Virus record (IMG/VR): IMGVR_UViG_3300037067_014415
Coordinates: 21,692 to 85,691 of that record
Source: a virus
Taxonomy: Duplodnaviria; Caudoviricetes
Length of the DNA: 64,000 nt
Direction: 5' to 3' (one strand)
This document shows, one piece after another, positions 1 through 57,998 of this stretch. The notes under the pieces are model-generated. The model did not search any database. It was not told where the DNA came from and saw only the letters and a program-made list of their open reading frames with translations. A program made the translations under genes and the position numbers. How positions within the stretch are numbered: position 1 is the first letter of the stretch; each line of letters opens with the position of its first letter.

Positions 1-30
1 TATTTTGACTAAACGAGTATAGGAGGGTTT

Positions 31-1737: not shown

Positions 1738-1750
1738 AGGAGTATATATT

Positions 1751-2209: not shown

Positions 2210-2228
2210 GAAATAAGAGGAGAAGGGT

Positions 2229-6859: not shown

Positions 6860-7230
6860 TGGAAAACTTATTTACACAAAATGGAAGTATAGAACATTCG
6901 GTAGGGTCTACGGTGAGTGGTGGGGTGTTTACAATAGCATCATTGGCATCGACAAAGGTAAAGGCTGTTAATGGTTTTGTGTATGTTGGAACGATTAATA
7001 TTTCGTTTGTTGGTGGTAATATGGCTGGAATGGTGCCAGGAAGTGTGAGTGGATCGGGAACAATAACGGCCACTTCGATGGTAGTTAAGCTGGGAGTTAA
7101 CTTTGCATTACGTGATGAAGATGCTGGTCAATTAGTGGGTACGGGCACACCTGTTGCAGGTCCTCCACCAGTGCCTGTGACAATACCATGCAAATGTGTG
7201 GATAATCAAAGCAAGGTGAAAGGGAATTAA
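6859..7230 (+). CDS. spike tip protein (PAAR-like)
   Basis: 123 aa Gly-rich beta protein directly after the spike; no literal PAAR motif. Confidence 0.5.
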   Translation: MENLFTQNGSIEHSVGSTVSGGVFTIASLASTKVKAVNGFVYVGTINISFVGGNMAGMVPGSVSGSGTITATSMVVKLGVNFALRDEDAGQLVGTGTPVAGPPPVPVTIPCKCVDNQSKVKGN

Positions 7231-9997: not shown

Positions 9998-10007
9998 AGG
10001 ATAACAA

Positions 10008-13373: not shown

Positions 13374-13384
13374 GAGTTTAAATT

Positions 13385-13801
13385 ATGGCATTGACAAAAA
13401 ATTATAATTACAAGGGTATTGAATTACCCGAAGCTTATTTTTCTCTTCACGATGTAAGGACAGATTACAAATTTAGAAAAAGTTTTACAGATGATAATGG
13501 AAATTCGACCAGCATAAAAGGCCGGGCTATGGTTGATATCGGAGTGTATCAAAATAAAGAGGCTTATCAAAGAGGCGATCAAGCATTAGAAGTTATCCCT
13601 GATATCCCGTTTGAAGGTGAAAACTTTGTGTATGATCCGGAAATTAGGCCAACAATCACCGGTGCAAAGTCTTATAAAAATGGTGGCGAGAAGGATAACC
13701 CCTACGATGTAAACGATCAAAGATGGCCCATATATTGCCAGTTAAAAAAATTAAAACCAAAAAATTCACAATTGGATTTTAGCACAGCAAAAGACTGTTA
13801 A
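13385..13801 (+). CDS. putative tail fibre accessory/chaperone protein
   Basis: small ORF after the fibre gene sharing its atypical base composition. Confidence 0.45.
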   Translation: MALTKNYNYKGIELPEAYFSLHDVRTDYKFRKSFTDDNGNSTSIKGRAMVDIGVYQNKEAYQRGDQALEVIPDIPFEGENFVYDPEIRPTITGAKSYKNGGEKDNPYDVNDQRWPIYCQLKKLKPKNSQLDFSTAKDC

Positions 13802-13814
13802 AAAAGGAGTAATC

Positions 13815-14237
13815 ATGGAAACAAAAGTAAAAACAAATCAGGTAAAAGAATTGCTTAAGCGAGCACCCTATCTATGTGGGTGTGTGGAGCCGGAACGTGT
13901 ATCACATATGTTTACACTACTGTATGATACTACAGCAGTGGGGGACAGTGCTTTTGATAGATCAAAGGCAGATATGACAATTGTGGATAATCGCATACGG
14001 TTAATTGACCTCACTAGTCCTTTTTTCCAGGCAGAAAAACCAGAAGTGGCTAAAAAGATCAAAGCGCTTTTGATTATTTGTATGTGGAGTGGGTATTTCC
14101 GGAAGGGGTATGTATCAAAAGAAGAGTTGGATAGTGTTATTGTTGCAAACAAGGAAGCAGCGCAGGCACCTATTCCAGAAGTGGATGCAATTATGGATTA
14201 TTCAGCCGCCTTGTCTATTTGGTGGTGGTTGATATGA
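13815..14237 (+). CDS. hypothetical protein
   Basis: 140 aa ORF with AAGGAG RBS. Confidence 0.6.
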   Translation: METKVKTNQVKELLKRAPYLCGCVEPERVSHMFTLLYDTTAVGDSAFDRSKADMTIVDNRIRLIDLTSPFFQAEKPEVAKKIKALLIICMWSGYFRKGYVSKEELDSVIVANKEAAQAPIPEVDAIMDYSAALSIWWWLI

Positions 14238-14851
14238 AAGAAGGCATGATTAAGCAAACCAGTATGTTATTGTTTATTGTTGGAATAATAACGCTAGTGT
14301 TTATATTAATATCATGCTATTTACAAGAACAAATTACAAGCACACAGGTATTTACTGTGTGCTTTCTTTTTGTTGGTGTTGTTTTTTCTTTGCTTGGCAT
14401 AAAATATACTGGTTTTTTAATAAAATTATTTCATGTTTTAACATGTTATAGTTGTTTAGTGTTTTCGCTACTAAATGACCCTCTTTCAATTGCAGCAATT
14501 GTTTTTTTAATTATTACATATTTTTTATGCAAAGAGTATGAATTTATTCAAAAGTATAAAAAGGTTATGATTGTCCTCATTATAGGATATGTGTACATTA
14601 CATGTTTCTCTGTGTTATTTTTTAAAAAAACATGGAGTAGTTTTTTATCATTCAATTTTTTGTCTGTGTTTCTTATTTCTTTTTTAGAAAACATGCAAAA
14701 AAGAAATGAAGATAATATAATCACAATACTGGAAAAAAGTGAAACAGTATTAGATAAAATGGTAGTTCACAGCAAAGAAATATTGCATAAATTGGAAAAG
14801 TATGAGCATATTATAATTGAAGAGAGTAATAAAAATGCCAATAGAAGATAA
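14234..14851 (+). CDS. multi-pass membrane protein (about 6 TM) with C-terminal coiled coil
   Basis: hydrophobic segments; ATGA overlap with the upstream stop. Confidence 0.65.
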   Translation: MKEGMIKQTSMLLFIVGIITLVFILISCYLQEQITSTQVFTVCFLFVGVVFSLLGIKYTGFLIKLFHVLTCYSCLVFSLLNDPLSIAAIVFLIITYFLCKEYEFIQKYKKVMIVLIIGYVYITCFSVLFFKKTWSSFLSFNFLSVFLISFLENMQKRNEDNIITILEKSETVLDKMVVHSKEILHKLEKYEHIIIEESNKNANRR

Positions 14852-15071
14852 AATTGATGCAATTCAAATGATTAAAGATATCGCTGCTTGTGCAACACGG
14901 CAAGAAGGGTATGAAAAAGAACAGGTACAGGTAAAAGCGGATATTGCAGAAATAAAAAACAGCCGAAAAGAAAGCACAAAATATTTAATCACAACAATTA
15001 TATCTATATTAGCATTTGCACTGGGTGCTTTAGGTGTCATTCAAAAATTGTTTGAAAAAAAGGCACCTTAG
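14835..15071 (+). CDS. holin-like small protein with C-terminal TM helix
   Basis: coiled N-terminus, one TM, basic tail, in lysis region. Confidence 0.5.
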   Translation: MPIEDKIDAIQMIKDIAACATRQEGYEKEQVQVKADIAEIKNSRKESTKYLITTIISILAFALGALGVIQKLFEKKAP

Positions 15072-15072
15072 T

Positions 15073-15792
15073 ATGAAAAAAGAATATACTGAATTTATTA
15101 AAGAGTGTGGTGGTTTGGAATTTCCAAACATCTTTTTTCATCCAGGGGCCAGGGAAATATCAGATTTTGGTTTAATTAATCATTATAAAATGATTGATGG
15201 TGTTCGGGTATGGGGATACCCTGGTATACACTTTGGCATAGACCTGGGTAATTCACACATCATAAAAGATGGATATATAAACCACTTATACTCTCCTTTT
15301 ATGTTTGAAAAATCCACTATGGTTTATCGATATATAAGTATGATTGAACTATTTCATAAATTTGGGTTTATAATGAAATTGTTTCATTGTAATCCTAAAT
15401 GGGTAGAATTAGAATTACTGCAAAGTGGAAAAGAAATAAAAAAAGGAACTAAATTAGGATTAATTGGAAACTATAATGCACCGGTTAATGAGACATTAGT
15501 GCATTCTGAAATAGTGTCTATTGATGGATATTGTATTTCTGATTTTTTAGAATATGTGTTAAGAGAAAAGTATGGTGATACTAATTTTCAAATAACTTTG
15601 AATGATGTTATTTCAGTGTATCGAAAATGTAGCAGAACATTATTTTGGAAAGAAGACCAAATAAAAAAAGATTATGAACAATTGCGTTTAGATAACAATA
15701 TTCGATTGTTGAATAAATTTAAAATTATATATAAAGACAGTACTGGAATTGAAAAAACATATTATTCCAGTAAATATTTGTTTGGAATATAA
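15073..15792 (+). CDS. M23-family peptidase-like protein
   Basis: HFGID (HxxxD) and IKKGTKLGLIGN...VHSEI motifs. Confidence 0.6.
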   Translation: MKKEYTEFIKECGGLEFPNIFFHPGAREISDFGLINHYKMIDGVRVWGYPGIHFGIDLGNSHIIKDGYINHLYSPFMFEKSTMVYRYISMIELFHKFGFIMKLFHCNPKWVELELLQSGKEIKKGTKLGLIGNYNAPVNETLVHSEIVSIDGYCISDFLEYVLREKYGDTNFQITLNDVISVYRKCSRTLFWKEDQIKKDYEQLRLDNNIRLLNKFKIIYKDSTGIEKTYYSSKYLFGI

Positions 15793-15805
15793 AAGGAGTA
15801 AGAGT

Positions 15806-16426
15806 ATGCAGATTAATAATGTACACGCAGTGAATTTTTTTATGAAAAAAGGGGAGCTTGATCCAGGAGCAAAGCTGATTGAAACACTATTGAATGAAAT
15901 CAATAAACCGGAACATTATCCGGGATATCCTAGATATAACACACTAAAATCTATTAGGAAAATGGGGTTGAGTCCTACACCCGGTATGGAGCCGGATACA
16001 ACATGGTGTATATATGTTGCATTTTATGTGATTGAAAAAATGGGATTTGATGCCAGACCATTTACAGACCAGGCACAACCAGAAGAGATTGCAATTTTCT
16101 ATACAGATGGGAATGAAATGCCACAGTGTGCCATCGATGCTACAAAAAAAGGTATTGTAAAAGAAGTAACTGAAAAAGAAGCATATGATTTAGCCAATAT
16201 TGGAATTCCTGTGTTATGTGCATCTCGTGGAAAAATGGGGGCAAATAATATAAGAGGAACAGGCCATGTTGCTATTGTAGCACCTGATTATAATAGTTAT
16301 ATGCCGAGTAGAATAATGATTGGTCAGGCTGGTGGTTCAAATGGCTTTTTCTCGGTAAATGAACAATTTCCTTTGAATTTAGTAGAAGCACCTCGGTATT
16401 TTGTACCAAACAAGCATAAAGCATGA
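15806..16426 (+). CDS. endolysin, CHAP/NlpC-P60-type cysteine peptidase
   Basis: TWCIYVA...GHVAIV Cys/His dyad. Confidence 0.7.
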   Translation: MQINNVHAVNFFMKKGELDPGAKLIETLLNEINKPEHYPGYPRYNTLKSIRKMGLSPTPGMEPDTTWCIYVAFYVIEKMGFDARPFTDQAQPEEIAIFYTDGNEMPQCAIDATKKGIVKEVTEKEAYDLANIGIPVLCASRGKMGANNIRGTGHVAIVAPDYNSYMPSRIMIGQAGGSNGFFSVNEQFPLNLVEAPRYFVPNKHKA

Positions 16427-16647
16427 AAAAGTTAAAGCTTGGTAAAACATTTACTACATTAATTGTACTTGCCTTTTGTGTGATAGGAATCATCATATTA
16501 TTTTCAAAAGAGTCAACAGAAAAAATGAGTAATTTTGAAAGATTGGTGCAGTTATTATTCCCTTACCTGATTCCTATTCTGGGGGGTGTTGCAATTAATG
16601 GTACAATAAAAAGCATCAAAAATTTATTAAAAAAGAGTGATAAATGA
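16423..16647 (+). CDS. holin-like two-TM protein
   Basis: 74 aa, two hydrophobic helices, basic C-terminus, next to the endolysin. Confidence 0.6.
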   Translation: MKKLKLGKTFTTLIVLAFCVIGIIILFSKESTEKMSNFERLVQLLFPYLIPILGGVAINGTIKSIKNLLKKSDK

Positions 16648-17342
16648 AAAAAGTATTACTTTTAGGTAATGGTATATCTAGATTACTGTACAAAGACTAT
16701 ATAAATAAGTGGAAAGGTGAAATTTGGGCATGTAATCGTGCTTTTTTAGAGTATGGAGATAGAATTACCAGGATTGCCGGACATGATGAGGTTATGGAAG
16801 AGGCAGCAGCATATAGAAAAAAGCATGGGTTTAGTTACAAAATATATGCAAAGAATAATGTAGCTGATATACAATTAACATGTCCAAAGCAATTTTGGGT
16901 GTGCAGTGGGATCACGCTAGTATCACAGGCATTATTTGAAGGGTATAACGTCTTTTTATGTGGTTTTGATATGGGAGGGAAAGATGTTCACTCTCCTAAC
17001 CATGATACCGTGAATGTCGTATTTTGGGTTCGTAATTGGAGAAAAGTAGCGGCAGCCTTTACTTTAGATAATGTAACTTTTATTGGGTATAACCATAAAC
17101 CATATATTTTAAGTGATGAGACCCCTTATAAGTATGAAAAATTGTATATTAATGGAATTGCACATATTCCGGGAGATGCATATTGTAAAATACATAAAGA
17201 ATTTGTGGAAAAAGAAGGTAAAGCATTTCCAATAAAGTCTGGTTGTGTACTGGTCAGGCACATTAATGGAACTGTCCGGCAACATGGAATTAAATTAGCA
17301 AATGTTTTGGTTGCTCAAAAGAAAGGAGTAATTGTATGTTAA
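16644..17342 (+). CDS. glycosyltransferase-like protein (Maf/DUF115 or sialyltransferase-type fold)
   Basis: LLGNGISR...CN...SG...LCGFD motif series. Confidence 0.55.
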   Translation: MKKVLLLGNGISRLLYKDYINKWKGEIWACNRAFLEYGDRITRIAGHDEVMEEAAAYRKKHGFSYKIYAKNNVADIQLTCPKQFWVCSGITLVSQALFEGYNVFLCGFDMGGKDVHSPNHDTVNVVFWVRNWRKVAAAFTLDNVTFIGYNHKPYILSDETPYKYEKLYINGIAHIPGDAYCKIHKEFVEKEGKAFPIKSGCVLVRHINGTVRQHGIKLANVLVAQKKGVIVC

Positions 17343-18034
17343 AAGGAGAAACTGGCGCAATACAAGTTGTTGATTTTGAAAGAAAAGGGGATATTGATAT
17401 TTATGGACTGACTATAGTTGAAGATAGTAATAGTGTTTCTGTAAAACCAGCTGCAAAAAAACATGGAAATTATGGGATGGAATTAAAGTGGTCTGGATCT
17501 AGTGCTATTAATCATATATATCAAAATATTGGTGAACAAAGTGAAGTTTATTTTCGGATGTATATAAAAATACTATCTGATTTTGTGATAGCAAAGGATG
17601 AGTTTATTGAAATTTGTTCATTAAATACAGATAATACTGGTTTAGGGGATGCTTTAATAACAGCATTATTATATCAAGGTAATTATTCAATTGGATTATT
17701 GTTTTTAAATGGTAGTTGGGACTCTGATAGTTCACCAGACAGTGACACTTTTTATGAGTTAGACCGTGATGTGTGGTATATGCTTGAGATAAGATTTAAA
17801 AAAGATTATCCAGGAGGCTCACAATTCTGGTTAGATAATGAATTAATGTATAGTGATTTGGGGAAAAGTCCCACAGATTCTATATATTACGTTGTAGTTG
17901 GAAATGTAAATGGTACAGATGTGCCAAATGCAGATTCAATTATCTATGTTGATGATATTGTGGTAAATGATGAAAAGGTTGGACCTTACGCAGTCAATCA
18001 ATCTGGAAATAAAATGATTTTTTTGGAGGATTAA
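17336..18034 (+). CDS. ConA-like lectin / polysaccharide-lyase-fold protein
   Basis: YFRMYI, WYMLEI, FWLDN, IYVDDIVV beta-sandwich pattern. Confidence 0.5.
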   Translation: MLKGETGAIQVVDFERKGDIDIYGLTIVEDSNSVSVKPAAKKHGNYGMELKWSGSSAINHIYQNIGEQSEVYFRMYIKILSDFVIAKDEFIEICSLNTDNTGLGDALITALLYQGNYSIGLLFLNGSWDSDSSPDSDTFYELDRDVWYMLEIRFKKDYPGGSQFWLDNELMYSDLGKSPTDSIYYVVVGNVNGTDVPNADSIIYVDDIVVNDEKVGPYAVNQSGNKMIFLED

Positions 18035-18304
18035 ATGGCAACAAGACAGCATGGAATACACACTTTGTCTGTAGCAGACGAAGAAATAAAAGGGATTGGT
18101 GGGAAGTTTAATTTACGGTGGGTGTCTGTTAGTGCAGATGCTGGGGATTCTCTTGTGCTGCAAGATGATGAAGGAAATAATATTTGGGAGTCTGTTGCTG
18201 GTGGGGCAAACCATATTGATGTTTTTCCAATAAAACTTAAAAAAAGTATGAATTTACTATTGAAAGTAATAGATTCTGGTGTATTATATATATACGAAAT
18301 GTAA
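18035..18304 (+). CDS. small beta-rich protein, possibly virion-associated
   Basis: 89 aa, last gene of the late operon before the terminator. Confidence 0.5.
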   Translation: MATRQHGIHTLSVADEEIKGIGGKFNLRWVSVSADAGDSLVLQDDEGNNIWESVAGGANHIDVFPIKLKKSMNLLLKVIDSGVLYIYEM

Positions 18305-18333
18305 AAAGCCACGCTCCTTCCTTTTATAACTTT

Positions 18334-18371
18334 GGGAAGCGCACTCCTCACCTGGTGCCTTCCCTTTTTTT
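18334..18371 (+). terminator. intrinsic terminator ending the structural/lysis operon
   Basis: GGGAAG-C-GCAC / GTGC-CTTCCC stem followed by T7. Confidence 0.75.
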
Positions 18372-18400
18372 GCACAAAATAAAAATAAATAAAAAAGTAC

Positions 18401-18429
18401 TTGACATTAACATTTAATTACATTATACT
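18401..18429 (+). promoter_or_regulatory. sigma70-type promoter P1
   Basis: TTGACA-17 nt-TATACT, A-rich upstream sequence. Confidence 0.9.
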
Positions 18430-18475
18430 TTTACTTATGCTGATTAAAAAGATCAGCTGGATAAGGAGTAAGGAA

Positions 18476-18691
18476 ATGAGAAAAATTATAGGAAGATTGA
18501 ATGGCAAAGAAATCGAAATGGCCACAAATGACAGCTCAAATAATCTATTTTTACGGCTACAGGATGGCAGCTGGATGCAAATGAATTCCGCTTCAAATGT
18601 CACCGTCAATGTAATCAAAAAGGAAATTAGAGCGAGATTTAATAATCTTGATATGGCCGGAAAAATAACATACGACTTAAAAAACTTTTAA
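18476..18691 (+). CDS. first early hypothetical protein
   Basis: ATG after AAGGAG/AAGGA, downstream of P1. Confidence 0.65.
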   Translation: MRKIIGRLNGKEIEMATNDSSNNLFLRLQDGSWMQMNSASNVTVNVIKKEIRARFNNLDMAGKITYDLKNF

Positions 18692-18745
18692 TGAATCACA
18701 CCGGCGCGAGCCAGTAAAGGAGAATGAGAATGAGGATGATAGAAG

Positions 18746-20455
18746 ATGAGATTAAGAGATTTTGAAACCGGGACAAAAGTATGGGTGTATAAAAATTGGA
18801 AATATCAAGATTTTTTTTCACCCCCAGAGAGAAAATATATCGGCCATATAATTTTTAATTTTATTAGAGATAATCGTAGATTAGGATGCTCTCATAATCA
18901 CAGAATTATGAAAGGTATTGTGATAGATGGAAAAGATGTCTTTGATGATCCTAATTATGATAAGATTAGTCAAAGTATGATTTCTAGAGATAAAATCATT
19001 AGGTTAAATTCCTTAAAATTGGTAAAGTTTGGATGTGATTATGAGGATTAAAAATAATTTAATAACGATTGAAATAGATTTTCATGCTTGGTTTTATAAT
19101 AATAATATGTTTATGGTTAATTTATCATTATTTAAATTAACCATAAAATATTGCGAGGATAAAAAAACCATCGATGAAATCTATATAAAAATATTAATAT
19201 TTTCAATTGATGTTTTGTTTAAATATTATAAAAAATGGGGGGATACATGAAACCTAAATCTATTACATTTAATATGCCTTAATGTAAGCCCGTCCTGCCG
19301 GGTAATAGGAAGGAAAAGGATTTTTTATGGATAAACTAAAAGCATTTGAATTGTTAAAGGTTAATTTTGGTGGGTGTATTAGTGACAATGAAAGTGGAAT
19401 TTCAATTTGGCAAAAAGGATTTTCTGATAAAGTTGTTACAGTAGAAAGTGTTTTTATAAACTCAGTAGAAACCTTACAGGTGAAAGTATCAGACAAACGA
19501 AATTCAATGCCAATTAGTACATCAATTATCGGATTGATCAGTATTATAGCAAAAATATTAAAAGTGGATATGGGGAAATTAAATTATGGAGTATGAGTCT
19601 AAATTATACATTGTGGAAAAATCATCTTGTTATGATTCAGAATTAGAAAAGGTGTTTGCACAAATAATTTGTATGTATAATTTATCAAACACTTTTCCAG
19701 AATTTAAACATTTTATAAATGAATGTTTACCAACTGATTGTTATATTTATATTGATTCAAAACGTACAATAAAAGATGAATATGATAGTCCTTTAGTGGA
19801 GTTGCCAATTAAAGACCTTTTAGAAGTGTTGGTTCAAGAAACAAAACATGAAGATAAACATTATCATAGCCAATTAATGCCATTAATTGCATTGCTAAAA
19901 GTATTTAAATCAAGGAAAAACATAGCAATTTTACATTATGGGTATTGAAAAAAAGGAGGAGTGTAAAAAAGTGAAAATTGAAAACAGTTCCAGGATAAGA
20001 ATTTTATTAAATGAACTAGAGCAGGTAAAGAAAAAGCTTAGTGATATAGACTTTTTTGAACGTGAAAAGAAAAATATTTCTAAACTTATTGCTTCTGGAT
20101 CAGATAATGTGGTTATAGATATTAATGCAAAACAAGCAGCTATAATTCTGAATGTCATTAAAAAAGACTTTTTAGAAGAACAACAGAAAATAGAAATTGA
20201 ATTAAGTGGTCTATAATGAATACTTTATATATAAGACCGTCAAAACACAGTGTTCTGAATTACATGAAAAGCCATATTGAACCATATAATTTAACCAAAT
20301 TTCTATCTGAATGTGATGTTGATGAACTGTTTGACCTGTTGAATAATTTTGTACCAACAGTATCCGCAGCACAGGCAGGAGAGATGATAAACGCTATTTT
20401 TGACAATTTAGAAGTTAAAATGGAACCAGAAGCATATAGAATATTGGAAGGGTGA
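18746..20455 (+). other. cluster of six small early hypothetical ORFs (18746, 19029, 19327, 19586, 19938, 20216)
   Basis: abutting or overlapping + strand ORFs of 73-120 aa; no recognisable family. Confidence 0.6.
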
Positions 20456-42813: not shown

Positions 42814-43851
42814 ATGGCAAGAAAATTGGATCCTGCGAGATATCAGGAACGTTATGATGAAAATGTGCAGGGTGGAACAGTAGTTCAGTTACCGGGTACA
42901 GTGAAGCGATATAAGATGGTTGAAGAAGAAGATGATGGTGAAGGGGAAAATAGAATTGTTATTGTTCCTTTTGTAATTAAGACTGATAGGCATCCGCTGC
43001 TTGCTTTGAATCCAGGAAGATATAAGGTGGGTGATTTGGACTTTGTTTTTTCTGTAATAATTCATAGAAATGTTGGTATTCAGAAGAAAACAATAATTTG
43101 TCCAACAACATATGGAAAAGAGTGTCCGGTGTGTGAACATTTAACTGATCTAAGAGATCAAGGTAAGGAAGAGACAAAAGAGTATAAAAACATTAATAAA
43201 TCGGGTCGTGTTTGGTATAATGTGTATAAGTATTCAAAGAAAAAAGATAGAAAACCAAAATTAGAGGTGCTTGAGGTATCACAATGGCAGTTTGAAAAAG
43301 AGTTGATGAGAGCTGCTAATAAAGCTGGTAAAGGTAGACCTGTGGCATATGCTGACCCGGAAGATGGGAAAGTTGTGTGTTTTAAGGCGGAAAAAATAAA
43401 GACTTATGGGTTTAAGTATAAAGAATTTTCTTTTAAGAAACGGGATAATAATTATGAAGATTCTTTGATTGATGCTGCTATAAGTTTTGATGAGTATGTG
43501 GATAAACTTCTTTCATATGAAGAAATTGCCATGATGTTGTTTGGTAAAAGATCAACAGAGAAAAAGGTGAGTAAAAAAAGAAAAGAAGAGGATGAGGACG
43601 AAGAAGATGAAGAAGATGAGGATGAAGTAGAGGACGAAGAAGATGAAGAAGATGAGGATGAAGAAGATGAAGAAGATGAAGAAGATGAAGTGAAGAAAAA
43701 ACCAGTAGAAAAAAAGAGTAAAAAAGAAGAAGATGTTTGTCCGGAAGGGCATAAATTTGGAATAGATGTAGATAAGAAAAAAGCATGTAAAAAGTGTATT
43801 TTGTGGGATAAGTGTAGTGATGCAAATGCCGCACTGTTAAAAGACGTGTAA
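42814..43851 (+). CDS. single-stranded DNA-binding protein (gp32-like) with acidic tract
   Basis: CPTTYGKECPVC Zn site; long D/E run; C-terminal CP...C..C motif. Confidence 0.75.
   Translation: MARKLDPARYQERYDENVQGGTVVQLPGTVKRYKMVEEEDDGEGENRIVIVPFVIKTDRHPLLALNPGRYKVGDLDFVFSVIIHRNVGIQKKTIICPTTYGKECPVCEHLTDLRDQGKEETKEYKNINKSGRVWYNVYKYSKKKDRKPKLEVLEVSQWQFEKELMRAANKAGKGRPVAYADPEDGKVVCFKAEKIKTYGFKYKEFSFKKRDNNYEDSLIDAAISFDEYVDKLLSYEEIAMMLFGKRSTEKKVSKKRKEEDEDEEDEEDEDEVEDEEDEEDEDEEDEEDEEDEVKKKPVEKKSKKEEDVCPEGHKFGIDVDKKKACKKCILWDKCSDANAALLKDV
43585..43690 (+). repeat. low-complexity GAA/GAT repeat encoding poly-D/E
   Basis: repeated GAAGAAGAT/GAGGAT units. Confidence 0.85.
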
Positions 43852-48285: not shown

Positions 48286-48813
48286 ATGGATGTGGATGCT
48301 CTTATTGGTGGGTATATTGATGAAGATGTGGATTTGCCAGATATTAAAGATAATAGAATTGCTAGTTTTGCATTTCGATATGCAGTTGAGTTTAAAAAAA
48401 CTAGAGGTGTATGGGCATCAGAGTATGGAGTACATAAACATACAATAGATATGTGGCTTGCTAGAAAAGATGTTCGGGAATTTATATTTTGTATTCGTGT
48501 AAATCAGCGAAAAAAAATGAATGTGGTTGCACAAAGAATGAAAGAGCAGCCACTTATAAAGTTATTGGAATTGTTGGAAAAACCAGTTGATAATGCACAA
48601 ATGGCAGAAGTTGTTAGAAAGACAGCTGGTGATTGTTTGCGAATAGTAGTAAAAGGAAAACTACCATTAGATGAGAATGAAGAGCGTTTAGTGAGTGTTA
48701 ATGTAACAAATAATAATCAAGTACAGGCAGTTTCGGAATCTAATGTCTCAGTGGAGGAATTAAAACGTAGGGTTCAGGAGATAGAACTATTGGAGCAAAT
48801 TGTTGATGGATAA
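48286..48813 (+). CDS. terminase small subunit (putative)
   Basis: HTH-like N-terminus plus coiled coil directly before the large subunit. Confidence 0.55.
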   Translation: MDVDALIGGYIDEDVDLPDIKDNRIASFAFRYAVEFKKTRGVWASEYGVHKHTIDMWLARKDVREFIFCIRVNQRKKMNVVAQRMKEQPLIKLLELLEKPVDNAQMAEVVRKTAGDCLRIVVKGKLPLDENEERLVSVNVTNNNQVQAVSESNVSVEELKRRVQEIELLEQIVDG

Positions 48814-50632
48814 TGAGGGTGAGTTAAAAGCACAAATAGAGAATAAAACAAAACAAGCTAAAAAGAAGATTGAGACTAGTTGGCCTTTACTGTACTGGTC
48901 TATGGAGTATCATAGAAATAGTAAAGGTAAAAAGATGGATTTTAATGATGCTTGGTTTTTAATTGATTTATATAAAAATATTTTGAAATGGCCATATTTT
49001 GTTGCCAAGAAATCAGCACAGTGTTTTATTTCGGAGCTTATGATTGTGTTGTCACTATATGAAGCTGGTGTTTTGGGGTTTTGTATAATGTACAGTCTTC
49101 CTAATGATAATTTAAAGCGACGGTTTGTTAATAATAGAGTTGATAAAGCTTTGCGGGAAATCCCTTTTTATGTGAAATTGTATGATGATGCAAAGGGTGT
49201 AAAAAGAACAGAATTAAAGCATTTTGGTAGAGGGTCTATTGCATATATTAACTCTAGAAATGAGAAGGAATATATTGAGATCCCTGTTGATGCTTCTACT
49301 GTGGATGAAAAAGATAGATGTGATATGGCTAATCTTGAAATGATCAAGGATAGAATGATTGCGTCTGAGTATGGGTATCAAAGAGAGATATCAAATCCAT
49401 CTATAGAGGGGTATGGTGTTGATTATAGATATGAGCAGTACAGTACACAGGGAAAGTATAACATAAGATGTAATTGTGGTGAGTGGGTAGTTCCTGATTT
49501 TTTTGTTAATGTTGTTAGGCAGGTTGGTGAGAGAAAATGGGAAGCAATTGATCCAAATTACGTAAAAAACCAGACTCCTGATATAAATGTGTATTGCCAT
49601 CATTGCTGGAAACCGATAGACAGATTAAAAAAAGGTGAGTGGGTTGAAAAATACCCGGATAAATTATGGGTGGGAAGAGAGATAGGATCATTGATAAGTA
49701 AAGCAAAAGGGTGTAGACCTGGTGTGTTGGTTGATGAGTGGATTGATGTATGTGGACATGACCAAAAAACACAGTTGTTTTATAATTTTAAATTGGGTTT
49801 GGCATATACAAGCGCAGGGGCAAAAATAACTGAGACATCGTTATTGAGTTGCCAGGAGAGGTATTCCTTTCCTATACGAAAGGAAGATGTTAAGGGTGTG
49901 CTTTTTATGGGTGTGGATGTGGGATCTGTTTTGAATGTGGTTATTCGAGAAAGGATTATAATAGGAAGTGTGATTAAGTTACGGCTTGTTTTAGTGACGA
50001 CTGTGGCTTCATTTTCATTATTAAGGGATTTGATTACATATTGGAGTCCAAAAATTGTGGTGGTAGACTCAAAACCGGAAATTCATAGTGTTTTGGATTT
50101 AAAAGAGTGGAATAAACACGTGTATTTGACTAAATTTCAGCATGGTTTGTTGAAGATCCAAATAAATAAACAAGAGCGGATGATATCGATGGACCGTACC
50201 TGTTTATTAGACATGGTAAAAGAAAGTTTTGATAAACAAGTGTATGTGATACCAGAGGGGTTTGAAACAATAGATGGTGGTGACTATGTTGCACATTTAA
50301 AGGCATCTACCAGGGTGCTCTTGTTGGATGAAGCACATCCTGAAAAGAGTTATTATAGTTGGGAGCATAGTATGCCGGATCATTATTTTTTGTCGGAATC
50401 TTTTTGTCTCCAGGCTAGTATAATTGATCCGGGTGGAAATGTGTTGGATTTTTATAAAAAGTGGGTGGTAGAAATTAATACTGAAAAGGATAAAGTGGTT
50501 AAAGAAGTGGTAAGACAGACAAATGAGAGTGAAGATTCTGCCAGGTCAAAGCTGAATGTACCTATAGGTATTTCACCAACACATTATTTATCTATGTTAC
50601 AGAATAAATATGCAGAAAGAAAAAAGAAATGA
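48806..50632 (+). CDS. terL: terminase large subunit (lambda gpA-like)
   Basis: KSAQ Walker A, VDEKD, ISNPS, Zn ribbon, MGVDVG nuclease, DHY. Confidence 0.85.
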   Translation: MDNEGELKAQIENKTKQAKKKIETSWPLLYWSMEYHRNSKGKKMDFNDAWFLIDLYKNILKWPYFVAKKSAQCFISELMIVLSLYEAGVLGFCIMYSLPNDNLKRRFVNNRVDKALREIPFYVKLYDDAKGVKRTELKHFGRGSIAYINSRNEKEYIEIPVDASTVDEKDRCDMANLEMIKDRMIASEYGYQREISNPSIEGYGVDYRYEQYSTQGKYNIRCNCGEWVVPDFFVNVVRQVGERKWEAIDPNYVKNQTPDINVYCHHCWKPIDRLKKGEWVEKYPDKLWVGREIGSLISKAKGCRPGVLVDEWIDVCGHDQKTQLFYNFKLGLAYTSAGAKITETSLLSCQERYSFPIRKEDVKGVLFMGVDVGSVLNVVIRERIIIGSVIKLRLVLVTTVASFSLLRDLITYWSPKIVVVDSKPEIHSVLDLKEWNKHVYLTKFQHGLLKIQINKQERMISMDRTCLLDMVKESFDKQVYVIPEGFETIDGGDYVAHLKASTRVLLLDEAHPEKSYYSWEHSMPDHYFLSESFCLQASIIDPGGNVLDFYKKWVVEINTEKDKVVKEVVRQTNESEDSARSKLNVPIGISPTHYLSMLQNKYAERKKK

Positions 50633-51213
50633 TTTGTACAGGTGTATGTGAAAAAGAGTTTTTGGGTGATGTTTTTAAGATTGAGTACAATTGTAAAAAA
50701 ATTACTGTTTTTTTGAAACGGTATAAAGGGTTGCATGTTGAACTAGTTAGAGAAAATAGGGGTTTGTACACAGATTGTTGGGAATTGTGTAATCGTGCTT
50801 TGTGGGATGGGTATGGAAGAATTAAACATAAACAAAGGATGTACAAGGCTCATCGTTTTTTGTTTTCTTTTTTTTCTGGAATTGATATAGATAGTTTTAG
50901 TGGTAAATTATTAAATCATCAATGTGATAACAGAAAGTGTTGTAATCCGTATCATTTGTTGATTGGAACACATACGGATAATATGAATGAAAGAAGTGAA
51001 AGGAATAGATGTGCATGTGGTGTACAAAATGCAGCACACATATTAACCGAAGAGGATGTATTGTATATTCTGGGTAGTGAAATGATAGATGAATATCTTG
51101 CTGGTGTTTTGGGAGTAGTGGAAGAAACTATAAAAAGAGTGAGAAAAAGAGAGACATGGAAGCATGTTGAGGTAGAAGAAAAAGTTTGTGGAATTGATGT
51201 AGATATTTTATAA
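50629..51213 (+). CDS. HNH endonuclease
   Basis: KAHRF...HQCDNRKCCNPYHL...GTHTDN. Confidence 0.85.
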   Translation: MICTGVCEKEFLGDVFKIEYNCKKITVFLKRYKGLHVELVRENRGLYTDCWELCNRALWDGYGRIKHKQRMYKAHRFLFSFFSGIDIDSFSGKLLNHQCDNRKCCNPYHLLIGTHTDNMNERSERNRCACGVQNAAHILTEEDVLYILGSEMIDEYLAGVLGVVEETIKRVRKRETWKHVEVEEKVCGIDVDIL

Positions 51214-51219
51214 AAGTAA

Positions 51220-51248
51220 TTGACATTAACATTTTTATCTAGTATACT
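51220..51248 (+). promoter_or_regulatory. sigma70-type promoter P3
   Basis: TTGACA-17 nt-TATACT. Confidence 0.88.
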
Positions 51249-51423
51249 TTGGGTTATAGGAGTCAAGAGCATATGGTTTTAACAAAGCAGTTTCCTTAAA
51301 TGGAAGCAATTCCCATTTTTGTGGGAACAGTGTTAGAGAAGCATATATTTGTCGAGAAGTGGATGAGTGAATCTGTGTGCTTTGGAAATGAGCTTGGTAG
51401 TGTCTGAAACGATACATGATAGA

Positions 51424-51479
51424 AAGGAAGGTGGCATTCATGTATACCGGTTGTGGAACCAGCCACCTTCCTTATTTTT
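51424..51479 (+). terminator. terminator/attenuator hairpin
   Basis: perfect 12-bp AAGGAAGGTGGC/GCCACCTTCCTT stem followed by ATTTTT. Confidence 0.65.
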
Positions 51480-51511
51480 AAAAGGTTAGGTATGAGGGCA
51501 AAAGAGATAAA

Positions 51512-52118
51512 ATGAAGTTAAAAAGAAGTCAAATAAAGGCGTTGTCTGATTCAAAGAAAAGCATTTTTAAAGATATTTTAAGGATTCAGAGGTCTATACT
51601 TCATCATAAACGTATGAGAGATTGGGCGAAAACCGCATTTAGAGGTTTTACTGATGTTGCAATGAAAGATGCTATTGGAGAAGATTGGTACAGTAGTTGT
51701 TGTTCTTTGTGTTGTAAGTACAGGGGTGCCCGGTGTGTTGGATGTCCTTTGTTTATAAATAATTGTGGTTGTAGTGGATATAAGAAAATATATGGTGGTG
51801 ATCATTATTATATAGATACACCGTGGGTTATGCTAAATGAATCAATGACATGGAGTGTATTTGTTGAAAATGAAAATAAATATATGCTCCCTGCATTAGA
51901 TAAAGTGTTAGATTATTATTATAAGTTATTTGAGGAAGCTAGTGATGAATGATGATGTGAAGTTGGAACTAATAAAAGCAAAAGTAACAAATAAGCAGGT
52001 AATTGCATATCTAAAAAAGAACCATGAAATTGAGTGTGAATTTCCTATTCAGGCATGGAGAGTGGTTTTTAAGGAAAATTTAATGGATGAAATAATGCTT
52101 TTTTATGGCATTAAATAA
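51512..52118 (+). other. two hypothetical ORFs (51512 Cys-rich; 51945)
   Basis: CSLCC...CVGCPL motif in the first. Confidence 0.55.
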
Positions 52119-52137
52119 AATACAGTAAGGAGTTTTT

Positions 52138-52254
52138 ATGACAGGAAATGAAGATGATTTTGATGAAGATGATGATTTCGATGATGATTTCGATGATGAA
52201 GATGATGATGAAGATTTTGATGAAGATGATGATTTTGGGGATGACGACGAGTAA
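52138..52254 (+). CDS. 38-aa hyper-acidic peptide (not in ORF track)
   Basis: AAGGAG RBS; MTGNEDDFDEDDDFDDDFDDEDDDEDFDEDDDFGDDDE; followed by a terminator. Confidence 0.75.
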   Translation: MTGNEDDFDEDDDFDDDFDDEDDDEDFDEDDDFGDDDE

Positions 52255-52268
52255 AAGTATTTAAAGAT

Positions 52269-52298
52269 AAGCAAGCATGTTCTCATGCTTGCTTTTTT
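52269..52298 (+). terminator. intrinsic terminator
   Basis: AAGCAAGCATG-TTCT-CATGCTTGCTT followed by T-tract. Confidence 0.85.
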
Positions 52299-52313
52299 AT
52301 CTAGGGGGATAGA

Positions 52314-53177
52314 ATGAATTGTAGTGTTTCAAATAATGGTGTGTGTAAAAGTTTTAAGAAAGCAGATAACTGTATAGATTGTGCATTGAAATTGAAAAAA
52401 GAAATGGAAGATATAGGACATAAAGCACAAACACAAATATCTTTTTTTGCTGATATTGTTACTGCAATAAAGATGTATGAGAAAGCAAAGATAATTCAGT
52501 TAAAAGAGCAGTTATTGGCTGAATTGGCTAGCAGTTCTATGCAAAGAGTCCATGAAAAAATGGAAGCAATGATTAAAGAAATACCAGTGGAAGGTGAAGT
52601 AACAATTGAAAGTGATAAAGTGGTGATGCAGATTGTTTTGTCTGGGTTGTTACAAGCAAGTAATAAGGCATGTACGATTCTTAAATTGGAAAATGTAATG
52701 CAGTATTGGCATGAAATCAGGAGCCAGGTAATGTGGATAATGGGTAATCCTGATTTGGATGTTTTGGCACATGAAGCAGTAGAAGTGGTTATACATGAAA
52801 AGAAAGAAGATGTGAAAAAGGAAATTGATGATATTTTGGATGATTGTGTGCAGGTAACAGATGAAAAATTTAAATTAAGTAGTTTTAATAAGGTAAATGA
52901 AGATGAAAAAGGTATGCGGGATGATGCTTTATATGGTGAAGATTTATGTGAAAAAAATACATTTGATATTAGTGTGGATGTAAAAAAAACACAGGATGAA
53001 TTTTTACCATTCTGTTATGCTGAATGTGCTCATTTGTCATTAACTGAAAAATCACAAAATGAAGCAGAGAATGGTAATTTATTGTCACATATTTGTTATT
53101 TATATAACAAAAGATTGTTTCATAATTCTCATGCTCCAAAATTAGAAAGATTAAAGGAATGTACATACAGGCAGTAA
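52314..53177 (+). CDS. hypothetical protein with Cys motifs at both ends
   Basis: 287 aa ORF with RBS. Confidence 0.6.
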   Translation: MNCSVSNNGVCKSFKKADNCIDCALKLKKEMEDIGHKAQTQISFFADIVTAIKMYEKAKIIQLKEQLLAELASSSMQRVHEKMEAMIKEIPVEGEVTIESDKVVMQIVLSGLLQASNKACTILKLENVMQYWHEIRSQVMWIMGNPDLDVLAHEAVEVVIHEKKEDVKKEIDDILDDCVQVTDEKFKLSSFNKVNEDEKGMRDDALYGEDLCEKNTFDISVDVKKTQDEFLPFCYAECAHLSLTEKSQNEAENGNLLSHICYLYNKRLFHNSHAPKLERLKECTYRQ

Positions 53178-53218
53178 TTGACTATGATATAATATACTTA
53201 TCATAGGAGATGAAAGAC

Positions 53219-54760
53219 ATGAGAACAAAGCAAGCAAATAGAAAATTAGAAAACAAACGGTGGGAAAATACCGTTAAGCAAAAAAAGATAATAGAGAGTA
53301 CTTTGTACAATCCTGAATTTCTCACCTGGGTTAGGGGTGGTGGAACTAGAGGGATAAGAGACAAAGTACTCACTATAAATACAAATACGTTACGTGCTAT
53401 GGCGGATAAGACACCTCTTGTGAATTCTATTATAAACGCTAGAATCAATCAACATTATCCGTATACAAAATTTATCACCGAAGAAGAGGCAAAAGAGGGT
53501 TCTAAGGGGTTTATAATTAGGCATATTCAAAAGGGAAAAAAAGTAGATGACAATGATAAACGGATGGTGTCTCTTTTAGGGAAATATGTTCTACAAACGG
53601 GTTTTAAGTATGATCCCGAGAGGGAAGACGATTTTGCAGATTATATAAATATGACTGTGAGGGAAGAATTAATTATAGACCAACTGGCAACAGAGATTCA
53701 GATGAACCAGAAGGGACAACCGGTGGCATTTTGGGCAGTTGATGGTGGTACAATTAAGCGTACAAGTGAAGAATATCATAATAAAAGTGTTAAATTTGTA
53801 CAGGAAATAGAAGATGTGGTGGTTGCAGAGTACAGTCATGAAAATCTTATATTTGATTATATGAATAAACGTGTGGATTTAAACTTTCGAGGGTATGGGT
53901 ATTCTCCGCTGGAACAGGCAATAGATGTGATTACAACGCTTTTGTTTGGGTACAGCCACTTAAGGGGTCAGTTTACAAAAGATAAGATGCCTAAAGGGTT
54001 TATTTCGGTGATGGGTGAAATAGACTCTATTGGTATATCGGCAATACAACAGTATTGGTATTCTGCTATGTCTGGGGCAGGTGGGGAGTGGAATATTCCT
54101 ATTTTACCCTCTGGAAAAGATGGTGTGGGGCTGGATTTTAAGGCAATTGGATCCTCAAACAGGGATATGGAGTATCATAAGGGTATGATGTTTATTTCTA
54201 GCATAATTGCTGCGGTTATGTCTATTGATTTAGCGGAGATTGGAATTAAGGCAGACGATTCCACTTCATTAATTGGTGAGTCCTCAGAACCTAGGGTGAC
54301 TGCATCTAAAGAGAGAGGATTACATTCTCTTTTAATGTTTAATCAACAGTATGTAAATAAAAACATACGGAAAATGACAACGGATTATCAATTAGAATTT
54401 GTAGGTTATAATCCGGAAGATATGAAAATGAAGTCTGAAATCAGGCAGTTACAGTTGAAGACAGACACATCAATAGATGAATTGCGGATTAAGGATGGAA
54501 AAAAACCATATAAAAAAGAATGGTCTGAGATGCCATTAAATGAACAGGCTGTGATAATTTTTAATAATATGAAGGCAAGAGAGAAACAGGAGGAACAACA
54601 GAAAGCACAGATGGAACAACAAGGGCAACAAAATGATAATGAATTTTATGATGATGATTATCCAGAAGAGGATATGGAAAAAAGTATGAAGGTTGATTTT
54701 GATAAATTCATGGAATTTAAAGATTGGCAGAAGGAATTTGAAAAAAGAACAAAGAGGTGA
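53219..54760 (+). CDS. portal protein
   Basis: FWAVDGGTI, GYSPLE, MPKG, SNRDMEY portal-type motifs. Confidence 0.85.
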   Translation: MRTKQANRKLENKRWENTVKQKKIIESTLYNPEFLTWVRGGGTRGIRDKVLTINTNTLRAMADKTPLVNSIINARINQHYPYTKFITEEEAKEGSKGFIIRHIQKGKKVDDNDKRMVSLLGKYVLQTGFKYDPEREDDFADYINMTVREELIIDQLATEIQMNQKGQPVAFWAVDGGTIKRTSEEYHNKSVKFVQEIEDVVVAEYSHENLIFDYMNKRVDLNFRGYGYSPLEQAIDVITTLLFGYSHLRGQFTKDKMPKGFISVMGEIDSIGISAIQQYWYSAMSGAGGEWNIPILPSGKDGVGLDFKAIGSSNRDMEYHKGMMFISSIIAAVMSIDLAEIGIKADDSTSLIGESSEPRVTASKERGLHSLLMFNQQYVNKNIRKMTTDYQLEFVGYNPEDMKMKSEIRQLQLKTDTSIDELRIKDGKKPYKKEWSEMPLNEQAVIIFNNMKAREKQEEQQKAQMEQQGQQNDNEFYDDDYPEEDMEKSMKVDFDKFMEFKDWQKEFEKRTKR

Positions 54761-56341: not shown

Positions 56342-56608
56342 ATGGCAGTAGAGAGTGCTTATAACCAAATCTTAAATGAGCAGTTAGTTTGTGTTATTAA
56401 GAATTTCTTTATTAAAAAAAAGTGTACTAAATGGTATGAAGTGATTAAGTATAGATTTGGTTTAGAAGGTGAAAAACCACATACATTTAAGGAATGTAGT
56501 GTAATTTTTGGTGTGTCAAAAGAAAGGATTAGGCAGATAACAATAAAAGCTATTCGGGTTATTCGTGAAGATGCTAAAATTGTGAAAATATTGAGGGAGT
56601 TTTTATAA
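56342..56608 (+). CDS. stand-alone sigma70 region-4 domain protein
   Basis: VIKYRFGLEGEKPHTFKECSVIFGVSKERIRQITIKAI. Confidence 0.8.
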   Translation: MAVESAYNQILNEQLVCVIKNFFIKKKCTKWYEVIKYRFGLEGEKPHTFKECSVIFGVSKERIRQITIKAIRVIREDAKIVKILREFL

Positions 56609-57386: not shown

Positions 57387-57998
57387 ATGAATGATTTACA
57401 TGACAGATTTAAATTTCATCAATTGAATGAAAAACAGATTAAAAAGTGTAGTGAGGTTCGAGGGAAAGCATTGGAATATGCTGAAATGTTGGTGTTGAAT
57501 TGTCCAGAAGGTAGGGAGTTGTCATTAGCATTAACCAAGTTGGAAGAGGTAGTGTTTTGGGCAAATGCTGGAATAGCCAGGGAGAAACAGTTAGTGAAAC
57601 CAGTAAAGTATGTAGAAGATAAAGATATTAGAGTACATATGGTTGCTGCTTTAACAGAAAGTGTGGGTAAAAAATCAAATGATTTAATACAAGGTGTTTT
57701 GGATGTTTTACCTGCACAAAGAAAGTTAGAAATAGGGTTAACTTGTGCAGTATGTGGAAAAGGCGAATGTGAATGTGAAAATTTGAAAAAAATAGTGGAT
57801 GATGGTTTTGATTTTTATAAAGGTTCTTGGGAATGTAAAGGATGTAAAATAAAAGTGGGAAGAATGAAGGAAATAATTCATGAAAGTAATTGTTATGTAG
57901 GATATGCAATTGAAAGGATGAAAGTAAAGGCTGAACTTGAGAAAGATGCTCATTTATGTATGGGTTGTGGGACTGTGGGTTGTTTATGCGGTCAGTAG
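57387..57998 (+). CDS. Acb2/Tad1-like domain with Cys-rich C-terminal extension
   Basis: RFKFHQLNEKQ...CPEGRELSLALTKLEEVVFWANAGIAR. Confidence 0.65.
   Translation: MNDLHDRFKFHQLNEKQIKKCSEVRGKALEYAEMLVLNCPEGRELSLALTKLEEVVFWANAGIAREKQLVKPVKYVEDKDIRVHMVAALTESVGKKSNDLIQGVLDVLPAQRKLEIGLTCAVCGKGECECENLKKIVDDGFDFYKGSWECKGCKIKVGRMKEIIHESNCYVGYAIERMKVKAELEKDAHLCMGCGTVGCLCGQ

What the first reader, a model, noticed from the sequence alone, without database searches (positions are those of the whole stretch)
52126..52298. Hidden 38-aa hyper-acidic peptide with spaced Phe residues: nucleic-acid mimic candidate
Seen: AAGGAG RBS, ORF 52138-52254 with 28 of 38 residues D/E, 5 Phe and no K/R, followed by a perfect terminator. 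It is below the ORF-track cutoff. Known: T7 Ocr, several acidic anti-CRISPRs, SSB acidic-Phe tails and the Bacillus RNAP delta tail act as polyanionic mimics. Inference: a minimal disordered DNA/RNA mimic inhibiting a host nucleic-acid-binding defence protein or RNAP.
Basis: partly seen in the sequence, partly recalled or inferred. Interest (0 to 1): 0.7.

Follow-up and report, generated by a model that had tools for sequence, protein, structure and literature searches.

The report
Orphan hyper-acidic 38-residue phage micro-gene
A phage genome carries a well-signalled gene for a 38-residue peptide that is three-quarters aspartate and glutamate; it is probably made and may act as a nucleic-acid-like decoy, but it has no relatives, so its function is still a guess.

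Summary
ORF 52138-52254 encodes 38 residues (22 Asp, 6 Glu, 5 Phe, no Lys/Arg/His). AAGGAG lies 5 nt before its ATG. One of only three strong plus-strand intrinsic terminators in this 85.7-kb phage genome follows its stop.

It is the last cistron of a self-contained cassette: a phage-specific sigma70-type promoter, a structured leader, a 146-aa Cys-rich gene, a 57/62-aa gene and then the peptide. The cassette sits in a hypervariable accessory slot between the large terminase and portal genes.

Codon choice, and variation limited to synonymous or Asp/Glu third-position changes, favour coding in this frame.

No homologue exists. An exhaustive phmmer search found nothing, both larger neighbours are orphans, and eleven related phage loci lack the gene. 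Conservation therefore cannot be tested, and the tract is a degenerate GAT repeat.

The nucleic-acid-mimic reading remains untested. Published work on ribosome destabilisation by N-terminal Asp/Glu runs offers another reason for the spaced Phe: bulky residues that let the ribosome finish.

Unrelated small hyper-acidic proteins occur in two clade relatives and in other viral contigs. This scan has noted similar microproteins on other DNA before. Interest is moderate.

The parts
51220..51248 (+). Sigma70-type promoter of the cassette: TTGACATTAAC, a 17-nt spacer counted from the TTGACA hexamer, then TATACT, with AAAAGTAA immediately upstream
   Evidence: 11/12 consensus match. The exact 11-mer occurs 8 times in the genome, all on the + strand, each with an AAAAG box upstream and a -10-like hexamer downstream.
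51255..51485 (+). Structured leader of about 230 nt ending in a 12-bp hairpin followed by TTATTTTT (attenuator or terminator-like)
   Evidence: MFE -63.9 kcal/mol, z = -2.9. No Rfam match at E <= 1. The sequence was read.
51512..51952 (+). First cistron: a 146-aa orphan with a basic N-terminal third and a Cys cluster
   Evidence: Only a self-hit among 5.8 billion proteins. No Pfam or PHROG family. The Atlas look-alikes are unnamed viral clusters.
51930..52118 (+). Second cistron: 62 aa from TTG, or 57 aa from the ATG at 51945, which overlaps the stop of the first cistron by 8 nt
   Evidence: ORF list. The gene caller chose the 57-aa form. No family found.
52127..52132 (+). Shine-Dalgarno AAGGAG, 5 nt before the ATG
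52138..52254 (+). Third cistron: the 38-aa hyper-acidic peptide (28 D/E, 5 F, net charge about -28)
   Evidence: Codon use matches the genome: GAT is 20 of 22 Asp codons against 0.89 genome-wide. All eight codons that differ from GAT by one base differ at the third position and still encode D or E.
52269..52300 (+). Intrinsic terminator (11-bp stem, 4-nt loop, T-tract) that closes the cassette, 14 nt after the stop codon

Best explanation
The ORF is a genuine but lineage-specific protein-coding micro-gene. It is the last of three translationally close-packed cistrons. They are transcribed from one of the phage's eight TTGACATTAAC-type host-RNAP promoters and stopped by a strong terminator just before the 287-aa and portal genes. 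The cassette, together with an HNH endonuclease gene and the 287-aa orphan, fills the terminase-portal junction, which in this phage clade is a hotspot for accessory genes. The product cannot fold. It is a free, disordered polyanion of about 4.5 kDa with a charge density like a short single-stranded nucleic acid. The most likely action is in trans. It would sit electrostatically on a basic nucleic-acid-binding surface of a host or phage protein and compete with DNA or RNA. This is how the disordered acidic segment of SPO1 Gp44 works, and how acidic SSB, Hfq and RNAP-delta tails work. The Phe residues probably serve one or both of two roles. They may be aromatic anchors, as in SSB-type tails. 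They may also be bulky residues that break the D/E runs so that the ribosome can complete a peptide that never leaves the exit tunnel. Shown here: the ORF, its signals, the operon layout, the coding-like substitution pattern, the absence from relatives and the variability of the slot. Inferred: translation, disorder, action in trans and any target.
For: Translation signals and tight fit: AAGGAG+5+ATG begins 19 nt after the previous stop, and the terminator begins 14 nt after the ORF's stop. A rare strong terminator (3 per genome) marks the end of a transcription unit. The promoter class is shared by eight sites. Codon usage is typical of the genome. All eight single-base departures from GAT are third-position and acid-preserving; in the other frames the same changes would be radical. 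No RNA structure lies over the ORF (z = -1.3) and no convincing Rfam family matches; the one match over the ORF, sR5 at E 0.11, is far below its gathering score. The slot between TerL and portal holds 1 gene in L032 and L033, 9 in L036 and L037, and 12 in L041. Other stand-alone hyper-acidic small genes with good signals exist. In clade relatives: L037 1118-1354, 78 aa, 60% D/E, with a GAGGAGG RBS and a stop overlapping the TerL start; and L032 17328-17663, 111 aa, ending in an acidic run plus Phe. In unrelated viral contigs: L006 (71 aa) and L018 (92 aa). In all of these free-standing proteins the longest D/E run is 8 or less. This genome's own long proteins tolerate runs of 14 and 20 (gp32-like SSB) and 14 (a 215-aa protein). 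That fits the published length and size rules for translating acidic runs. The precedent for a disordered phage polyanion acting as an ssDNA mimic is SPO1 Gp44 residues 56-122.
Against: No homologue is known, so there is no test of purifying selection. The tract is a degenerate trinucleotide repeat that could be young, and its duplicated 12- and 18-nt units make the substitution argument non-independent. N-terminal D/E runs abort translation in E. coli and in a reconstituted system, so yield may be low. Characterised DNA mimics are folded, or are tethered to a targeting domain; a free 38-mer would lack specificity. No expression data could be obtained.
Confidence: 0.35

Rival explanations
1. 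It is a young ORF with no selected function. A GAT-repeat expansion next to a terminator happens to be open behind an SD-like AAGGAG. It may be translated weakly or not at all, and it does nothing for the phage.
For: TRF finds periods of 9-24 nt with 63-79% matches. Two TTC Phe codons, rare in this genome (6%), sit in adjacent identical 12-nt units, which points to recent duplication. The tract is open in three frames. The whole 2-kb insert is orphan. No homologue was found in 1.84 billion representatives. Nine of eleven clade loci have no small hyper-acidic ORF (at least 33% D/E and under 10% K/R).
Against: The genome is about 96% coding, with only 14 gaps over 120 nt. Most + strand AAGGAG sites with a start codon 4-10 nt downstream head long ORFs. 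There are no in-frame stops and no non-D/E/F/G residues across 34 codons. The placement between the previous stop and the terminator is exact.
Confidence: 0.28
2. It is a cis-acting translational element. The ORF would be an intrinsically ribosome-destabilising (mgtL-like) leader. Whether a ribosome reaches the stop codon 14 nt before the hairpin would tune termination, and hence read-through into the 287-aa and portal genes, for example in response to Mg2+.
For: The D/E run starts at codon 5, the position of maximal destabilisation risk, and the effect is stronger at low Mg2+. Only about 20 nt separate the terminator from the 287-aa gene, which leaves no room for a promoter, so that gene needs read-through. 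The stop codon is close enough for a terminating ribosome to reach the base of the extended stem.
Against: No alternative antiterminator pairing was found; the ORF region is unstructured (z = -1.3) and the terminator hairpin stands alone. The core stem starts beyond the usual ribosome footprint. The Phe punctuation suggests selection for completing translation rather than aborting it. The portal gene may have its own extended -10 promoter (TGATATAAT at 53186-53194).
Confidence: 0.12
3. It is a partner within the cassette or the packaging module. The peptide would neutralise or chaperone a basic surface of a phage protein: the basic N-terminal third of the co-transcribed 146-aa Cys-rich protein, the adjacent HNH endonuclease, or the terminase. 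It would act like an immunity or antidote peptide.
For: It is co-transcribed and close-packed with the 146-aa protein, which has a +8 net charge over a 30-residue window. Acidic DDDF tracts are fused to Cys-rich, zinc-ribbon-like domains in other viral proteins (L030, L022). In relative L037 a hyper-acidic 78-aa gene is translationally coupled to TerL.
Against: None of these associations is homologous or conserved. The cassette proteins are only mildly basic overall (pI 8.7-8.8).
Confidence: 0.12

Closest known systems
Central disordered domain (residues 56-122) of Bacillus phage SPO1 Gp44
   Same: Both are phage-encoded and intrinsically disordered, with over half D/E and no basic residues. 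Gp44's segment is proposed to imitate ssDNA and bind RNAP beta/beta' non-specifically (PMC8208478).
   Different: In Gp44 it is a 67-residue segment inside a 237-aa protein, flanked by a folded DNA-binding N-domain and a required C-domain. Here the peptide stands alone, is 38 aa, is 74% D/E and is punctuated by Phe. There is no sequence relationship.
Small folded DNA mimics: T7 gp5.9 (RecBCD inhibitor), T7 Ocr, ArdA, phi29 p56
   Same: They are small, very acidic phage proteins that compete for DNA-binding sites (PMC9836394; PMC3711442, listed).
   Different: Those proteins are folded (gp5.9 is a parallel coiled-coil dimer) and make specific contacts. The peptide here has no hydrophobic core to fold around and matches no Pfam or PHROG family.
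Acidic C-terminal tails of SSB-type proteins (E. coli SSB tip, T7 gp2.5, T4 gp32 A-domain) and of Hfq and RNAP delta
   Same: Both show runs of Asp/Glu with Phe. Such tails bind basic pockets of partner proteins or fold back on the protein's own nucleic-acid site (general knowledge; PMC7913777 and PMC5606850, listed). A gp32-like viral protein ending in DDDF repeats was seen in L013.
   Different: Those tails are tethered to a folded domain, and the SSB-type tip ends in Phe with a free carboxylate. This peptide is free and ends in Gly-Asp-Asp-Asp-Glu.
MgtL-type ribosome-destabilising leader peptides
   Same: Both are very short ORFs rich in D/E from the first codons, placed upstream of other genes.
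   Different: MgtL is 17 aa and acts through alternative leader RNA structures. No alternative structure is predicted here, and bulky Phe residues interrupt every run.

Membership tests
Ocr / ArdA / other catalogued DNA-mimic families | Detectable sequence-family membership | tested here: not met
   No Pfam hit, no PHROG hit, and no phmmer hit in 1.84 billion representatives.
Ocr / ArdA / gp5.9-type folded DNA mimics | A folded scaffold that displays carboxylates in a DNA-like array | tested here: inconclusive
   No fold was run. A stable fold is judged implausible from composition: 28 of 38 residues are D/E, and the only hydrophobic residues are 5 Phe and the initiator Met. The Atlas holds no model.
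Disordered polyanionic nucleic-acid mimics (SPO1 Gp44 56-122, RNAP delta tail) | More than 50% D/E with no basic residues over tens of residues | tested here: met
   74% D/E and 0 K/R/H over 38 residues. Gp44's segment is 57%.
Disordered polyanionic nucleic-acid mimics (SPO1 Gp44 56-122, RNAP delta tail) | Tethered to a folded targeting domain | tested here: not met
   The ORF stands alone, bounded by in-frame stops at 52126 and 52252.
Disordered polyanionic nucleic-acid mimics | Binds a nucleic-acid-binding protein and displaces DNA or RNA | not testable with these tools
   This needs biochemistry. The complex-prediction job was lost and the tool then became unavailable.
SSB-type acidic tip | Acidic run ending in a C-terminal aromatic residue | tested here: not met
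   The last Phe is residue 33, and the C-terminus is acidic with no terminal aromatic residue.
Attenuator or leader peptide | Short ORF upstream of a terminator, with mutually exclusive RNA structures | tested here: not met
   The terminator is present, but no competing pairing was found and the ORF region is unstructured.
Conserved protein-coding gene | Homologues that keep frame and composition | tested here: not met
   None in 11 clade loci or in global searches. The two hyper-acidic genes in L032 and L037 are at other positions and cannot be aligned.

The most novel reading that the evidence does not exclude
A free 38-residue, almost pure Asp/Glu peptide is made early in infection. It acts as the smallest known disordered nucleic-acid mimic. 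It would strip a host DNA- or RNA-binding protein (a defence nuclease, RecBCD/AddAB-type enzyme, SSB client or RNAP) from its substrate. Its Phe residues would do double duty as binding anchors and as the device that lets ribosomes translate an otherwise self-aborting sequence. It would be one instance of a convergent class of aromatic-punctuated polyanionic microproteins in phages.
Probability: 0.2. Interest if true: 0.7.

Novelty: new variant of a known kind. Interest (0 to 1): 0.4.

Why it matters
If the peptide is made and active, electrostatic mimicry of nucleic acid would need neither a fold nor a targeting domain. That would widen the search space for phage counter-defence and host-takeover factors to micro-ORFs that annotation pipelines and homology searches miss. 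It is also a natural extreme test of how ribosomes cope with N-terminal acidic runs. If it is not made, it is a clean example of how repeat expansion beside good signals creates gene-like ORFs in phage plasticity regions.

Tried and rejected
Several searches and tests led nowhere.

- Megablast of 48800-54760 against 50,697 phage records gave no match.
- The search for related loci with the 287-aa and 146-aa proteins found no relatives. TerL and portal gave only L004 (29% identity) and L003 (50%) in IMG/VR, neither syntenic.
- Word-indexed protein searches with the 146-aa and 287-aa neighbours returned only themselves.
- An identical contig from another sample (L005) is 100% identical over 8,441 bp, so it shows no repeat-length polymorphism.
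- phmmer of the peptide against 1.84 billion representatives gave 0 hits, as expected for a low-complexity query.
- An exact look-up of the peptide and three other acidic proteins found none on record.
- The Atlas feature search gave only unnamed 40-69-aa clusters at 0.82-0.88, which is lead level only.
- Rfam gave nothing meaningful (sR5 at E 0.11).
- An RNA-level role for the GAU-rich tract was rejected because there is no structure.
- Classical attenuation was rejected because there is no antiterminator.
- No phage tRNA-Asp link exists: the phage has no tRNA genes in the window or in genome positions 1-20000.
- No bacterial-type SSB is present. The phage SSB is gp32-like, and its acidic tract lacks Phe.
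- Complex prediction (146 aa + 57 aa + peptide) was submitted, lost, and then unavailable, so there is no result of any kind.

Full report
What is there. The window is positions 21692-85691 of an 85,691-bp IMG/VR virus record rated complete. The record has a 127-bp terminal repeat, which probably reflects a circular assembly. All genes lie on the + strand. The base composition is extreme: A 36%, T 30%, G 23%, C 10.5%, with GC skew of 0.4-0.5 over most of the window.

It has 38 codons: 22 Asp, 6 Glu, 5 Phe, 2 Gly and one each of Met, Thr and Asn, with no basic residue. An in-frame TAA three codons upstream fixes the ATG as the only possible start.

AAGGAG sits 5 nt before the ATG. That hexamer occurs 46 times on the + strand against 9 on the - strand. 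In 33 of the 46 cases a start codon follows within 4-10 nt, and most of those head long ORFs.

Fourteen nucleotides after the stop comes an 11-bp perfect hairpin with a 4-nt loop and a T-tract. It folds at -18.1 kcal/mol, z = -4.9. A scan of the whole genome finds only three such strong + strand terminators.

Is it more than chance? It is the only ORF of at least 15 aa, out of 1,356, with at least 40% D/E. But the tract is a degenerate GAT/GAA repeat, so the composition is the product of repeat expansion and not of 38 independent events. It is also open in a second + frame and on the - strand.

The better argument for coding is the pattern of departures from GAT. The eight codons one step away (5 GAA, 1 GAG, 2 GAC) all differ at the third position and all still encode an acidic residue. 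The five two-step codons all encode Phe (3 TTT, 2 TTC). Under uniform single-base change only one change in three would keep the residue acidic, giving roughly 1.5e-4 for eight of eight. This is my own calculation. It is weakened by evident duplication of 12- and 18-nt units, so the number of independent events is perhaps four or five.

Codon choice matches the genome: GAT is 20 of 22 Asp codons against 0.89 genome-wide. The genome is about 96% coding, with only 14 gaps longer than 120 nt. Without this ORF the 195-nt stretch at 52119-52313 would be one more such gap.

Context. Upstream lie a gpA-type large terminase (48800-50632) and an HNH endonuclease gene that overlaps its stop (50629-51213). 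Downstream lie a 287-aa orphan (52314-53177) and the portal gene (53210-54760).

Between the HNH gene and the ORF sits a near-consensus promoter at 51220-51248. Its TTGACATTAAC 11-mer recurs eight times in the genome, always on the + strand, with an AAAAG box upstream and a -10-like hexamer downstream.

A structured leader of about 230 nt follows, ending in a 12-bp hairpin plus T-run. Next come a 146-aa Cys-rich orphan and a 57/62-aa orphan whose ATG overlaps the previous stop. Nineteen nucleotides after that, the acidic ORF begins.

The ORF is therefore the last cistron of a promoter-to-terminator cassette. The 287-aa gene starts about 20 nt after the terminator, so it depends on read-through. 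The portal gene may have its own extended -10 element at 53186-53194.

Relatives. The portal protein has more than 200 relatives at about 45-59% identity, many on contigs of 85-97 kb. I fetched eleven related loci: L003, L004, L032-L034 and L036-L042.

The terminase-portal interval is hypervariable across them:
- one small gene in the two closest relatives, L032 and L033;
- nine genes in L036 and in L037;
- twelve genes in L041;
- no terminase gene in the up to 10 kb upstream of the portal gene in L003, L034, L038, L039, L040 and L042.

None of these loci carries the cassette. The 146-aa and 287-aa neighbours have no homologue in 5.8 billion clustered proteins apart from themselves. The peptide has no phmmer hit in 1.84 billion representatives. 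An identical contig from another sample shows no variation. Conservation, the decisive computational test, therefore cannot be applied.

A recurring kind of gene. Two of the eleven clade loci hold unrelated small hyper-acidic genes:
- L037 1118-1354 encodes 78 aa at 60% D/E. It has a strong RBS, and its stop overlaps the TerL start.
- L032 17328-17663 encodes 111 aa at 45% D/E and ends in an acidic run plus Phe.

A pattern scan of IMG/VR for DDDFDDDFDD found 26 loci. They include free-standing hyper-acidic proteins of 71 aa (L006) and 92 aa (L018), acidic tails on zinc-ribbon-like proteins, and one on a gp32-like protein. Earlier notes of this scan describe similar aromatic-punctuated acidic microproteins on other DNA. 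I did not test those notes, and they are not independent support.

Translation constraint. Chadani et al. (bioRxiv 10.1101/2021.02.02.429294) report several relevant results:
- D/E-rich sequences at the very N-terminus destabilise the ribosome and abort translation, more so at low Mg2+.
- About 30 preceding residues in the exit tunnel suppress this effect.
- A few bulky residues just before the run also suppress it.
- N-terminal regions of bacterial ORFs are depleted in D/E/P.

A 38-residue peptide never emerges from the tunnel, so it is the worst case. In line with the size rule, its longest uninterrupted D/E run is 8, and the free-standing acidic proteins in L006, L018, L032 and L037 have runs of 7 or less. 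Long proteins of this same genome carry runs of 14 and 20 (the gp32-like SSB, from residue 258) and 14 (a 215-aa protein, from residue 49). This is a small sample. It does offer an explanation for the spaced Phe that does not involve binding. It also raises a rival reading in which the ORF is a cis-acting, mgtL-like element. I found no alternative RNA pairing that would link translation to the terminator, so I rank that rival low.

Mechanism. I commit, at about 0.35, to a translated peptide that acts in trans as a disordered polyanion competing with nucleic acid for a basic protein surface. The closest experimental precedent is the base-free, 57% D/E disordered segment of SPO1 Gp44, which behaves like ssDNA and binds RNAP (PMC8208478). 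Folded small mimics such as T7 gp5.9 (PMC9836394) work like it only in the electrostatic sense. The peptide is not a member of any catalogued family. It lacks the C-terminal aromatic residue that defines SSB-type tips, and it lacks the tethering domain of Gp44 and RNAP delta.

The rivals are:
- a functionless young ORF from repeat expansion (0.28);
- a cis-acting translational element (0.12);
- an intra-cassette or packaging-module partner (0.12).

The target, the timing of expression and even translation itself remain inferences.

Verdict. If the peptide is functional it would be a new, minimal, untethered variant of a known kind. Interest is moderate (0.4).

Noticed in passing
window 51255-51485 (+): A structured leader of about 230 nt lies between the promoter and the 146-aa gene. 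It ends in a 12-bp hairpin followed by TTATTTTT. This looks like a riboswitch or attenuator, or a small RNA. Fold z = -2.9; no Rfam match.
   Followed up: partly
window 18401, 26072, 51220, 58194, 63716; genome 2370, 4472, 10940: There are eight exact TTGACATTAAC sites, all on the + strand. The five in the window, which were inspected, each have an AAAAG box upstream and a -10-like hexamer 17 nt after the TTGACA hexamer. This is a phage-specific promoter class.
   Followed up: partly
window 50629-53177, compared with L032, L033, L036, L037 and L041: The terminase-portal junction is a hypervariable accessory slot in this phage clade, holding 1 to 12 genes. Here it holds an HNH endonuclease gene plus four orphan genes.
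   Followed up: yes
L037 1118-1354 (+); L032 17328-17663 (+): Clade relatives carry unrelated hyper-acidic small genes. One encodes 78 aa (60% D/E) and is translationally coupled to TerL. The other encodes 111 aa and ends in an acidic run plus a terminal Phe, like a T7 gp2.5 or SSB tail.
   Followed up: partly
window 42814-43851 (+): A gp32-like SSB (Pfam gp32, E 2e-8) has an internal acidic tract with uninterrupted D/E runs of 14 and 20. A basic, Cys-rich C-terminal segment follows. This is an unusual layout for gp32.
   Followed up: no
whole record (window 1-64000 and genome 1-21691): The strand composition is extreme (C 10.5%, G 23%; GC skew 0.4-0.56 from about 24 kb onward). Every gene is on one strand and there are no tRNA genes. 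Only three strong intrinsic terminators lie on the coding strand.
   Followed up: partly
window 57387-57998 and 56342-56608: Pfam confirms an Acb2/Tad1 hairpin domain (E 1e-17) at the N-terminus of a 203-aa protein. It also confirms a free-standing sigma70 region-4 domain in an 88-aa protein (E 8e-9).
   Followed up: partly
L035 (genome) 5187-8412: An ADP-ribosyltransferase (ADPrib_exo_Tox, E 5e-21) is followed by an 853-aa polyvalent protein with InPase, ART-PolyVal and DUF5661 domains. The relatives' loci carry similar large multi-domain proteins downstream of the portal gene.
   Followed up: no
window 53186-53194 (+): TGATATAAT, an extended -10 element, lies about 16 nt upstream of the portal gene's RBS. 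It could give the portal gene its own promoter downstream of the strong terminator.
   Followed up: no
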